From assembly GCF_031769215.1 (NCBI RefSeq), contig NW_026782328.1, forward strand, positions 1,488,001 to 1,552,000: a stretch of DNA of 64,000 nucleotides, read 5' to 3'. Made by a program: the position numbers and the translations under genes. Shown here piece after piece: positions 3,215-9,671 of the stretch (position 1 is its first letter; each line of letters opens with the position of its first letter). This stretch comes from Ylistrum balloti. Taxonomy: Eukaryota. The notes beneath the pieces were generated by a model that saw only the letters and a list, made by a program, of their open reading frames with translations, was not told the DNA's origin and searched no databases.

Positions 3215-6200
3215 ATGAGGTCCTTCGTCAGACGAATACGTCGCCTCAAGTTTATCGTCATCGTGACGCTGACGTCATGCATATTATGCATTTTTGGACC
3301 TTCCGTACTTACCATATTTGACAGCAATGAGATCAGTGTTTCAAGTAAGTCATTTTGCTTCTTGTTTTTTTCTCTCTCCCTCGTCCCGGCAAAGATAATA
3401 CTCTGACCTGGACACAAACCAATCAATACGTCATTGAGTGAAAAATAATTACCAACTATATGTACAACGCAAATACAGAAAGGAAGCAAAGTAACATCAC
3501 GTACATGGCGTACGTTTCAATTTATATAAAATCCATGAACAGACACGTCCTGGTAACGATTCTTCCAACCTTAAACCAAATTCATGTTACAGTTACATGT
3601 AATTTGTAAAAAAAGTTAAAGTCTAAGATATCTTTGTTTCATTTCTAATGCAAGAACACTTGGCCGGCTATAGAAAATACTGAAATATCCAAACACAACT
3701 GATCAAAAGTAAAAATGAAAGTAAATGCTAAAAGACTGTCCTGTAATATTTAATATCGATTGCATCAGTCGTGTGGTATCATGGTACGGTGTTTGCATGG
3801 AATCTATTTTTGTCTAAATTATGTTGTAGATGATCTGAAGGAATATGCCAACCTGCCAAATTATGTAAGTATAAATATAAAATACTTTTTGTATATAATA
3901 AAATACTTTACCGGGCGCTGCTCCTGTAACGAAGACTCCGTGGCGCAACGGTAGCGCGTCTGACTCCAGATCAGAAGGTTGCGTGTTCAAATCACGTCGG
4001 GGTCATGTGTGATTGATCTTTTTTAGTGAAATCTTAAAATAAGATAAAATATATAAATTTAGCAGAATAACAGCTGTTGTAATAATAGCATTCAGTTTTC
4101 AATAAACGAAAGGTCAGGCAGTAAATAAAATCGTTGCATCATACAGTTTTGTTTGTATTTGCGTTTACATGGCTATTCTAAGGCATAAGGAAATCACGAC
4201 GAATACCATCCACATCGTGACCATTGCCACGTCATTTTCGTAGGCATGACAACGGCTTCAGCCGCACAACGCCTCAATGAATGTTCTACTAAATGGATTA
4301 CTTTCAACAACGAATCTATCTACAAAATATATAACAAAAACGTCCCTCTACACCTAGAAATCTTGATACCACCTAACACGCGTGACTTAAACATAAAGTT
4401 AAGAAATCCAGACAGATGTCAATTCCACCGAAGTAAGCTGGACATTATGAAAAGTCTTTTGTTCCGTCGTCTATAAATTTGTGGAATAATTTAGACAATT
4501 CTACTAAATCGGCTGTATCACTAAAACACTCAAAAGCAACCTATCCCGCATACACTCGGTAGTTTCGGTACTTGTGAAAAACAACGCTGGTGGGGCATGG
4601 CTAAGTATTATTCCAGAGTCCCTACATGGGCGCCAATGTAGGCAATGACACAATCAAAGTCTGGGACATTTCTATACCTAATCGTAGAATCTATTTACAG
4701 AGAACACTTTACTGCTGATATTCTGTATAAAAATATATCTCCTTTTAATATTTTTTTCAAATGGCTGGCCGACACCGAACTGCCAAAAATCACGAAAGAT
4801 TTTGTCACCGATGACGGACATCTATTTCACAGAGTAAAATAAAAAAGATACGGCGGGGAGTTTCTCGGTCAGTGAAACAGAGCGTAACATATTTCTATAA
4901 GGCAATGAAATGACGTAAGTTACATTCCTTGCGTTTCGAATAACACCGTAGGTCATCGAACTGCACGTACGTGTGGTTGTTTATTTTTCAACGTGATTGT
5001 ATTCTGACACACAAACGAAACGTCTCCGCTTAATGTTTGTAACATTTTTTTACTATTTCATTCGAATATGTCATGTATGTTTTTCTTTTCAACTAATCAA
5101 AGATTAAGATTCATTGTACTGGATAACACATTCAATTTAGTGTTTAGTTATCATCGATCAGCGAAACATGTCAGGGTTCAAGAGGGGGTAGTCATTAAAA
5201 TGTCCCCAGTCTCAATAACATCAGTTCCTGATTATTTACATTCTAGTAATCGATACCTCTCTGTCACACACGGTCGCATCAGACACCACTGTTGTGGCTT
5301 GCGTTCAGATTTATATAGGGTAGGTATTTGCCAATCCCCGAATTGTTCGTGTGGTGAACGTATTAAAGACACTCACTATTTCCTTACATGTTCATTATTT
5401 CCTTATTGTAGACGCATATTTGAAACTTTGTATAATTTAGACGTAGATTTTGATATAGGACCTGTCTTATGGGTCGACAGTCATGTTAACTCATATAAAG
5501 CTACTCGTAAAATTGTCAGATTTGTTCAGAAGTTTATAAAACAAACAACGCATATTAACACAACCTGATTCTGAACTGTTTGTAGTCGGCACTGAATTGA
5601 TATAAAATCGATATAGGCTCCTTTTCTCTTCTAATCTTTCTATCATATCTTCTCATCTTTTCCTCCTTTTGACAAAACTATTTAAACAATTGTACGTCTA
5701 CCAATTACATATTTTCATGTTTATAGTATAAATATGTGTCACGTGCGGTATATCAATTATTTGTAATTTTATTTATGAAGAAAAAGTCATAAGGTGCTAG
5801 AACTTGTCTCTGATGCATTTTTCTGCTACTGATAATAAAACATGATTAAAAAAACTAAATAAACGAATCTTTATTTCAGTTTAAATAAAGTTTTCATCGG
5901 CATAAGAAACATGATGCGTAGGAAATGTAATAATGGGAAATGTAGTGGTATGTCATTTTTGGTCAGAGTAAATGACAGAGCTTTATAGGAATCATACCAT
6001 ACTTTAGGGTGCAATACGGTATGCTGTCGGCTAAAGTCCGTCGTTTGAATTGACCATCAATGCAAAACCTCCGTAATAGTCCAAATATGATGTCTGTTAC
6101 TCCTAATACATACGTGTATATCCGTGTTTTGTTTGATCGAATCTTTTCAGCGATATTTCGGCAACAAAACATTTGGTCGCAAGATTCCAATCACCTACGT

Positions 6201-9010: not shown

Positions 9011-9671
9011 TAAGGCAATGAAATGACGCAAGTTACATTCCTTGCGTTTCGAATAACACCGGAGGTCATCGAACGTGTGGTTGTTTATTTTTCGATGTGA
9101 TTATATACCGACACACAAAAAAAAAAAAAAAAACGCTACCGCTAAATGTTTGTAACAATTTTACACTTTCATTCAAATATGTCATTTATGTTTTTCAACT
9201 AATCAAAGATTAAGATTCATTGTACTGGATAACACATTCAATTTAGTGTTTAGTTATCATCGATCAGCGAAACATGTCAAGTTTCAAGAGGGGGTAGTCA
9301 TTAAAATGTCCCCAGTCTCGATAACGTTTATTTCCCCCGCTTGCATTCGGTACTTGTGAAAGTAACGCTGGTGGGACATGGCTAAGTATTATTTCATAGT
9401 GCTACAGGGGCGCCAATGTATGCAATGGCAAAATCAAACCCTGTGATATTTCTATACCTAATCGTAGAATCTATATACAGATAACACTTTACTGCTGATA
9501 TTCTGTATAAAAATATATCTCCTTTAATTTTTCTTTTTTCAAATGGCTGGCCGACACCGAACTGCCAAAATTCACGAAACATTTCGTCACCGATGACGGA
9601 CATCTATTTCACAGAGTACAAAGATACGGCGGGCAGTTTCTTGGTCAGTGGAACAGGGCGTAACATATTTC
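9011..9671. mobile_element. Unclassified ~660-bp interspersed element, copy 2 (block order B-linker-A)
   Basis: It has the same two blocks as 4565-5222 in swapped order, joined by a 20-bp linker (9326-9345). Confidence 0.85.

What the first reader, a model, noticed from the sequence alone, without database searches (positions are those of the whole stretch)
4561..9671. Two circularly permuted copies of one ~660-bp element; one splits a LINE between AGTT direct repeats
Seen: copy 1 (4565-5222) is block A then block B. Copy 2 (9011-9671) is block B, a 20-bp linker, then block A, in the same orientation and 4.4 kb away. Each copy contains the junction the other lacks, so together they define a closed A-B-linker monomer. 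Seen: removing copy 1 and one AGTT restores the host LINE reading CAC TCG GTA GTT CCT GAT TAT (HSVVPDY), so copy 1 is a discrete insertion. No TIRs, LTRs or poly(A) tail are visible. Inference: the element moved through a circular or concatemeric intermediate opened at different points (rolling-circle Helitron/Helentron-type product, tyrosine-recombinase Crypton-type circle, or eccDNA from a tandem array), losing about 20 bp at the break.
Basis: partly seen in the sequence, partly recalled or inferred. Interest (0 to 1): 0.7.

Follow-up and report, generated by a model that had tools for sequence, protein, structure and literature searches.

The report
Rotated local duplicate inside a LINE
A 660-base patch of old transposon debris was copied once into a dead retrotransposon 4.4 kb away with its two halves swapped, likely by way of a small DNA circle captured at a chromosome break; this is a known kind of repair accident, not a new jumping gene.

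Summary
The swapped-order pair is real (A 89%, B 86% identical), and contigs of other runs bridge the new A/B junction. It is not a mobile element. Its non-repeat parts occur exactly twice in the 648-Mb genome, both here. The rest is debris: the end of a Tc1-like transposon and a piece of a miniature LTR element. The '20-bp linker' is intact Tc1 sequence, so copy 1 was opened inside that remnant and copy 2 is most likely the source. Copy 1 is a discrete insertion in a LINE, but AGTT is not a clean target duplication: the family site reads TTCAGTT, and the left seven bases are a near-copy of the insert's own start, a repair-type scar. Best reading: a 663-bp circle closed at a TA microhomology and was patched into a break (0.5). 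A local copying or fragment-capture route without a free circle (0.3) cannot be excluded, nor a lost third source (0.12). This matches published AB-to-BA insertions in humans, and this scan has noted the same pattern on other genomes. Known kind, low interest.

The parts
4316..4557 (+). Left part of a decayed, 5'-truncated dispersed retroelement copy (LINE-like; clade not determined)
   Evidence: 41 genome matches, 40 of 50 candidates scored; family alignment begins at about 4316; 21 of 228 columns differ from the family majority. The LINE label is from the look of the peptide (recalled); Pfam gave no reverse-transcriptase hit on the C-terminal pieces tried
4558..4564 (+). 7-bp junction filler GGTAGTT (includes the left 'AGTT'); 4556-4564 is an 8/9 copy of the insert's first 9 bases 4565-4573
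   Evidence: 0 of 17 LINE family loci have it; a 9-mer followed by an 8/9-or-better copy occurs at 53 of 63980 window positions
4565..5219 (+). Copy 1, the derived, rotated copy (A then B), inserted in the LINE
4898..4899 (+). A/B junction, 2-bp TA microhomology; the inferred closing point of the circle
   Evidence: joint 9673 to 9011, back 663, 2 letters fit both sides; bridged by contigs in 3 of 4 runs
5221..5850 (+). Right part of the same LINE-like copy; starts TCAGTT as in the family; 5220 is A where the family has T
   Evidence: 13 of 167 columns differ from the family majority over 5221-5399
9011..9675 (+). Copy 2 (B, linker, A), the likely source locus
   Evidence: source status inferred, no outgroup
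9011..9103 (+). Unique DNA (start of B); found only here and at 4898-4999
   Evidence: 2 of 2 candidates; pattern with up to 3 mismatches gives 2 hits genome-wide
9106..9349 (-). 3' end of a Tc1/mariner-type DNA transposon (TA, terminal inverted repeat, 3' UTR, last transposase codons), truncated at 9349; includes the 'linker'. Counterpart in copy 1: about 5002-5219
   Evidence: 10 of 12 family loci align through the linker (alignment); near-full copies of 1311-1418 bp with terminal inverted repeats; family peptide matches Sleeping Beauty transposase, E 6.7e-5
9326..9346 (+). 20-21 bp lost from copy 1; native Tc1-like sequence
   Evidence: 9326-9349 matches 10 of 11 family copies at 15-20 of 24 bases
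9348..9420 (-). Internal fragment (primer-binding-site-like end plus 4 bp of LTR) of a miniature LTR retrotransposon (TRIM, Helenus-like). Counterpart in copy 1: 4566-4640
   Evidence: about 150-bp direct repeats, 387-422 bp span, 4-bp flanking duplication in 2 of 3 complete copies
9421..9675 (+). Unique DNA (rest of A); found only here and at 4641-4899
   Evidence: 3 of 3 candidates all in the window; pattern with up to 3 mismatches gives 2 hits

Best explanation
Copy 1 is a one-off rotated duplicate of the patchwork DNA at 9011-9675, inserted into an old LINE copy, likely after that DNA formed a 663-bp circle that was opened and patched into a chromosome break. Steps. (1, shown) The 660 bp are unique DNA plus a truncated Tc1-like end and a TRIM fragment, not a repeat family. 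(2, inferred) The two TA dinucleotides at 9011 and 9674 were joined by end joining, giving a circle. (3, shown for the loss, inferred for the cause) The molecule was opened inside the Tc1 remnant and lost 20-21 bp. (4, shown for the sequence, inferred for the enzyme) It was joined into the LINE with loss of 0-1 host bases and a 7-bp filler copied from its own start, the kind of scar that polymerase-theta end joining leaves. (5, shown) The copies have since diverged by 7-9% substitutions. No function is implied.
For: Only two copies of the unique parts (none more in 664 kb around the window). The linker is family Tc1 sequence, so copy 1 is derived. LINE halves are one base apart in 12 of 19 family loci. 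B end and A start lie 20-21 bp apart in the source, which a circle gives directly. A 2-bp closure microhomology and 1-27 bp indels at the opening are what Chicote et al. report for circle-mediated duplications (PMC7450558 Results). Nearby, same-chromosome, same-orientation placement matches human AB-to-BA insertions: 80 of 82 intra-chromosomal, 79 of 80 same orientation (bioRxiv 10.64898/2026.09.03.749254 section 7). Templated fillers of 3-30 bp mark theta-mediated joining (PMC7165422 passages). The junctions exist in other runs. Timing is coherent: the LINE is 8-9% from its family majority, while each copy has only 7 or 11 private changes in 213 Tc1 columns plus 6 shared.
Against: No circle was observed, and sequence scars cannot separate end joining from template switching (stated in PMC7450558 Discussion). 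A freely diffusing circle should insert in either orientation, so the 79-of-80 same-orientation bias in humans hints at a tethered or replicative route (my inference). Copy 1 starts within 2-4 bp of the Tc1/TRIM junction, a coincidence of roughly 1-4% if that junction was older and the opening random (rough estimate). A crossover at TA looks the same whether copy 2 gave the circle or received it, and no outgroup or empty allele fixes copy 2 as native. The filler could also be a later 9-bp slippage duplication, or a decayed 7-bp target duplication.
Confidence: 0.5

Rival explanations
1. Same source and outcome, but no free circle. A break in the LINE was repaired by copying from the neighbouring locus: both ends invaded near 9326-9346, copied in opposite directions and annealed at TA (or a fork switched template three times), or two broken sister-chromatid fragments A and B were captured in swapped order.
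For: 4.4-kb distance and same orientation; templated filler at the left junction; orientation bias in the human set; junction scars cannot separate the pathways.
Against: Independent template switches do not explain why B's end and A's start lie 20 bp apart; this needs both ends to engage one spot or a break there. A circle gives the adjacency with fewer assumptions.
Confidence: 0.3
2. Both copies are insertions from a third, now lost or unassembled locus whose natural order was TRIM-unique-Tc1 (A then B). A circle closed at the Tc1/TRIM junction (CG microhomology) and inserted twice: opened at TA for copy 2, and beside its own closure for copy 1.
For: Explains why copy 1 starts at the Tc1/TRIM junction and why both repeats are cut off at that one point; that junction is unique in the genome; the rest of neither repeat lies in the window.
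Against: Needs a lost source and two insertions 4.4 kb apart. No third copy. The TRIM piece is also cut at its other end, so truncation is ordinary here. All 4 runs laid carry B joined to the same 28 left-flank bases, with no joint that skips copy 2.
Confidence: 0.12
3. The monomer is a mobile element family (Helitron/Helentron product, Crypton circle, or unit of a tandem array) that inserts at different opening points.
For: Circular permutation and absence of terminal repeats; animal Cryptons also lack terminal repeats (PMC3212892 passages); a HINE-like element ends 30 bp from copy 2 in this assembly.
Against: Two copies only; no array; no long open frame; no subterminal inverted repeats or stable terminal hairpin (z from -1.42 to +0.61); a patchwork of other families; no HINE sequence inside the duplicated unit; in 4 of 4 runs the bases upstream of 8983 do not fit the HINE end.
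Confidence: 0.03
4. Tandem duplication of the source followed by copying of the A-B middle and later collapse, or a local misassembly.
For: Tandem duplication plus deletion is a documented false positive for this pattern (PMC7188851 part 2).
Against: No second A or B flanks either copy; the LINE flanks are intact to within 1 bp; 7-9% divergence and bridging contigs exclude an assembly artefact.
Confidence: 0.05

Closest known systems
AB-to-BA 'eccDNA-mediated' germline insertions in humans (Zhang et al., bioRxiv 10.64898/2026.09.03.749254; read: abstract, passages, sections 7 and 29; supplements closed, so sizes and distances in Table S2 not seen)
   Same: Cyclic block order of a unique source no longer than 5 kb, 95% or more source coverage (here about 97%), same chromosome, same orientation, nearby. 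They class 82 of 327 source-resolved insertions this way.
   Different: Here an invertebrate, an old event (7-9% diverged), breakpoints inside repeats (which their filter removes), and only 2-bp microhomologies rather than 5 bp or more.
Circular-DNA-mediated segmental duplications (Chicote et al. 2020, PMC7450558; read: abstract, Results, Discussion) and eccDNA-mediated duplications (Takahashi and Innan 2020, PMC7188851; read: parts 1-2 of 4). Tilapia vasa case PMC3245284 seen only in a search listing; cattle case only as cited in these papers.
   Same: Two parallel dot-plot lines, 2-bp closure microhomology, 1-27 bp indels at the opening, breakpoints in non-homologous repeats, two copies only.
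   Different: Those of Chicote et al. are 22-3918 kb and 0.09-58 Mb apart, mostly with genes; this one is 0.66 kb, 4.4 kb apart and gene-free. Their source was fixed with outgroups; here it is inferred from nested repeats.
Polymerase-theta templated insertions (PMC7165422; read: passages)
   Same: Short filler directly repeating sequence next to the junction, primed at a 2-bp microhomology.
   Different: Applies only to the 7-bp left filler, which has one mismatch; the enzyme is not testable here.
Components: Tc1/mariner transposon; Helenus-type TRIM (Kojima 2024, PMC10886601; read: passages)
   Same: Tc1: terminal inverted repeats, TA context, Sleeping Beauty-like peptide. TRIM: two short LTRs, primer-binding-site-like and polypurine-like motifs, 4-bp duplication as in animal Helenus.
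   Different: Both are passive fragments here. The tRNA-like part of the LTR was seen by eye only; ARAGORN and Rfam did not call it, so 'Helenus' is a resemblance.

Membership tests
Circle-type (AB-to-BA) duplication | Cyclic shift of block order, same strand, near-complete source coverage | tested here: met
   20-21 of 665 bp missing
Circle-type (AB-to-BA) duplication | Unique source, and no tandem flanking block (the known false positive) | tested here: met
Circle-type (AB-to-BA) duplication | Recipient is a discrete insertion with only micro-indels or microhomology at the junctions | tested here: met
   (12 of 19 family loci one base apart); TA microhomology
Circle-type (AB-to-BA) duplication | Source copy shown to be ancestral | tested here: inconclusive
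   Linker is intact Tc1 in copy 2, so copy 1 is derived; no outgroup genome was offered, so copy 2 as native is not proven
Circle-type (AB-to-BA) duplication | A physical circle existed | not testable with these tools
   Old event; only contigs available
Helentron / HINE | Subterminal inverted repeats and a 3' palindrome (PMC7492417 passages) | tested here: not met
Helentron / HINE | Dispersed family with shared ends | tested here: not met
   two copies with different ends
Helentron / HINE | Insertion at TT without target duplication | tested here: inconclusive
   The host site has a TT at the break, but a 7-bp filler is present, and TT is common in DNA of 35% GC
Helitron (canonical) | 5' TC, 3' CTRR with nearby hairpin, inserted between A and T (features recalled) | tested here: not met
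   Copy 1 starts TC but ends ATAAC; host site is C|T; end hairpin z -0.62
Crypton | Tyrosine recombinase gene, or an abundant non-autonomous family (PMC3212892 passages) | tested here: not met
   no long open frame; two copies; no search for a Crypton recombinase elsewhere in the genome was run
Crypton | 4-6 bp terminal direct repeats used for recombination (fungal and oomycete elements; absent in animal ones) | tested here: inconclusive
   AGTT flanks copy 1, but the opening lost 20 bp and the left AGTT lies in a filler
Satellite-derived eccDNA | Head-to-tail array of the monomer | tested here: not met
   collapsed or unassembled arrays not excluded, but contig depth over the unique part is 11-15 in the bins that one contig alone covers

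The most novel reading that the evidence does not exclude
A chimeric DNA circle, closed by joining two unrelated transposon remnants, persisted or was amplified in a germ cell and integrated twice within 4.4 kb at two different opening points, after which its source was lost. That would be a fossil of one non-element circle making several insertions in an invertebrate germline.
Probability: 0.12. Interest if true: 0.45.

Novelty: new member of a known kind. Interest (0 to 1): 0.22.

Why it matters
As a single case it matters little: gene-free, old, and of a class that makes up about a quarter of source-resolved human insertions in one recent preprint. It is a tidy example in which nested repeats give the direction of the event without an outgroup, and in which an apparent 4-bp target duplication turns out to be a repair scar. 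One search for such events in molluscs (15 of 32 papers listed, titles and abstract starts only) showed none, which is weak evidence of absence; the host's being a mollusc is itself my inference from its repeats. A genome-wide count of orientation and distance for such pairs would bear on the open question whether AB-to-BA insertions need a free circle.

Tried and rejected
Third copy or family: DNA searches, patterns with up to 3 mismatches and a sensitive BLAST of 664 kb around the window found none; the DNA search skips very common words, and copies far more diverged could be missed.

Coding capacity: six-frame translation showed no long frame.

Hairpins at the ends: none beyond shuffles.

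tRNA in the TRIM LTR: ARAGORN 0 genes in 5 loci, Rfam no tRNA match in 3 loci.

Family labels by Pfam: no DDE hit for the Tc1-like peptide, only weak HTH hits below cut-off, and no hit for two LINE peptides; the Tc1 label rests and on structure.

Empty-site allele for copy 1: run X5 shows a joint 4557 to 5221 with a T between, but at depth 50 against 6-12 for single-copy pieces and with only 22 letters on one side; read as other LINE family copies, not as an allele.

Missing cover: block A of copy 2 and its right flank (9421-9753) have no cover in X3, X4 and X5 and a contig depth of 7.8 in X1, and copy 1's contig runs unbroken in X3 and X5. This may be a later deletion polymorphism, but no contig joins across it, so it is not used as evidence. 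A joint 9221 to 9765 in X1 has only 29 letters on one side and was not trusted.

Role for the neighbouring HINE-like element: rejected, since none of its sequence is in the duplicate.

Base rate: 4 raw AB-to-BA pairs among 684 alignments in 664 kb; three are multi-copy with one block or both at 66-76% identity, and only this pair is two-copy. The survey was centred on the finding, so it gives no unbiased rate.

The five runs come from 2 studies, 4 from one; X3 and X5 share the same differences in copy 1 and may not be independent.

Full report
Observation. Self-BLAST and pairwise alignment confirm two blocks in swapped order on the same strand: A 4564-4899 with 9346-9675 (88.8%) and B 4898-5219 with 9011-9325 (86.1%). 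Counting substitutions only, A differs at 28 of 326 and B at 21 of 306 positions. In copy 1 the blocks meet at a TA that is both the last two bases of A and the first two of B in copy 2. In copy 2 they are separated by 20-21 bp that copy 1 lacks.

It is not an assembly artefact. Five public DNA runs from two studies hold 65-69% of the sampled words. Listed contigs bridge copy 1's A/B junction in 3 of 4 runs laid and its right junction in 4 of 4; one run shows copy 2's B-linker-A joint; no listed piece bridges the left junction, where a high-copy repeat breaks the contigs. Copy 2's right boundary is bridged in 1 of 4 runs.

It is not a repeat family. The whole monomer matched full-length only in the window (40 of 361 candidates scored, because two sub-parts are repeats). 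The non-repeat parts were then searched separately: 3 of 3 and 2 of 2 candidates, all in the window; 27-base patterns on each side of the A/B junction with up to 3 mismatches gave 2 hits each in 648 Mb; 664 kb around the window hold no further copy.

Anatomy. Along copy 2: about 93 bp of unique DNA; the 3' end of a Tc1/mariner-type transposon on the minus strand (about 9106-9349); a 73-bp internal piece of a miniature LTR element (9348-9420); and 255 bp of unique DNA. The Tc1 label rests on near-full copies of 1311-1418 bp with terminal inverted repeats and on a family peptide that matches Sleeping Beauty transposase at E 6.7e-5; Pfam did not call the catalytic domain. The LTR element has repeats of about 150 bp and a 4-bp flanking duplication in 2 of 3 complete copies, like animal Helenus TRIMs (PMC10886601, passages); its tRNA-like segment was not called by ARAGORN or Rfam.

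Direction. The 'linker' is the continuation of the Tc1 end: 10 of 12 family loci align through it, and 9326-9349 matches 10 of 11 aligned copies at 15-20 of 24 bases (L014 left out because it ends earlier). So copy 2 keeps the older sequence there and copy 1 was opened inside the remnant. Copy 1 is an insertion: in 12 of 19 LINE family loci the halves ending at 4557 and starting at 5221 are one base apart. The two copies share 6 derived changes in 213 Tc1 columns and have 11 and 7 private ones, while the LINE is 8-9% from its family majority. The order LINE insertion, then duplication, fits.

Junctions. The family site reads TTCAGTT in 11 of 17 loci that reach it and never GGTAGTT. The right side of copy 1 therefore has the host's own TCAGTT. 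The left side has seven extra bases which, with the host's last TC, form an 8-of-9 copy of the insert's first nine bases; such near-tandem 9-mers occur at 53 of 63980 window positions. Reading the left side as a duplicated target needs three adjacent substitutions; reading it as templated filler needs one. This resembles polymerase-theta templated insertions of 3-30 bp (PMC7165422, passages), though a later slippage duplication would look the same.

Mechanism. The simplest account is a 663-bp circle closed at TA, opened in the Tc1 remnant with 20-21 bp lost, and joined into a break in the LINE (0.5). Human cases show the same scars: 1-2 bp microhomologies and 1-27 bp indels (PMC7450558, Results), and the same placement, 80 of 82 on the same chromosome and 79 of 80 in the same orientation (bioRxiv 10.64898/2026.09.03.749254, section 7; supplements not seen). 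That orientation bias, and the authors' own caution that scars cannot separate end joining from template switching, leave a non-circle route open (0.3). One oddity counts against my reading: copy 1 begins within 2-4 bp of the Tc1/TRIM junction. 12 of 12 TRIM loci read CACAG before this point while both copies read TT, and that junction is unique in the genome. If that junction were the true closure point, both copies would be insertions from a lost third locus (0.12). A crossover at TA is symmetric, so sequence alone cannot settle it.

Rejected families. HINEs need subterminal inverted repeats and a 3' palindrome (PMC7492417, passages); none was found. Crypton non-autonomous elements are abundant families (PMC3212892, passages); this has two copies and no long frame. 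No tandem array exists in the assembly. The tandem-plus-deletion false positive of Takahashi and Innan (PMC7188851, parts 1-2 of 4) needs a repeated flanking block, which is absent.

Context and novelty. In 664 kb this is the only two-copy AB-to-BA pair among 4 raw candidates. The class is in print for humans, and per the introductions and listings seen also for cattle, yeast and tilapia. Earlier notes of this scan describe the same pattern in other genomes; none exists for this genome. One search found no molluscan report among 15 of 32 papers listed. Verdict: real, a new member of a known kind, interest 0.22.

Noticed in passing
window 8278-8981: HINE-like (non-autonomous Helentron) element: T-rich start, subterminal inverted repeats, four 145-bp tandem units. 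Its usual 3' palindrome is missing in this assembly, and in 4 of 4 runs the 55-229 contig bases upstream of 8983 do not fit the element's end, so the adjacency may be specific to this haplotype.
   Followed up: partly
window 7353-8225 (+): Open frame with Pfam Sulfotransfer_2 (E 2.6e-26), probably the last exon of a carbohydrate sulfotransferase gene, lying between the two copies; gene structure not worked out.
   Followed up: partly
window 3934-4005 (+): tRNA-Trp(CCA) gene 550 bp upstream of the insertion site; no evidence of a link.
   Followed up: partly
L015-L030, L080-L092; window 4566-4640 and 9348-9420: Abundant miniature LTR element with a tRNA-like segment in its LTR seen by eye, 4-bp duplications and variants carrying tandem repeats of an internal unit (L091, L092); resembles Helenus.
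   Followed up: partly
L004-L014, L027: Decayed Tc1-like family, about 1.3-1.4 kb, with internally deleted copies (L014, about 510 bp).
   Followed up: partly
window 9783-9844: Short high-copy repeat end, 38 matches at 86-100% among 40 candidates scored; not identified.
   Followed up: no
window 14883-15123: 241-bp imperfect palindrome, 83%.
   Followed up: no
window 10229-12086, 17607-19021, 20069-21089, 21437-24280: Several long minisatellite arrays (30, 37, 30 and 54 bp units).
   Followed up: no
G000:C471:1089056-1110726 and 1112926-1128298; 1129370-1137535 and 1158540-1173182: An old collinear duplication of about 20 kb (79-92%) and an old inverted duplication (73-93%) on the same contig.
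   Followed up: no
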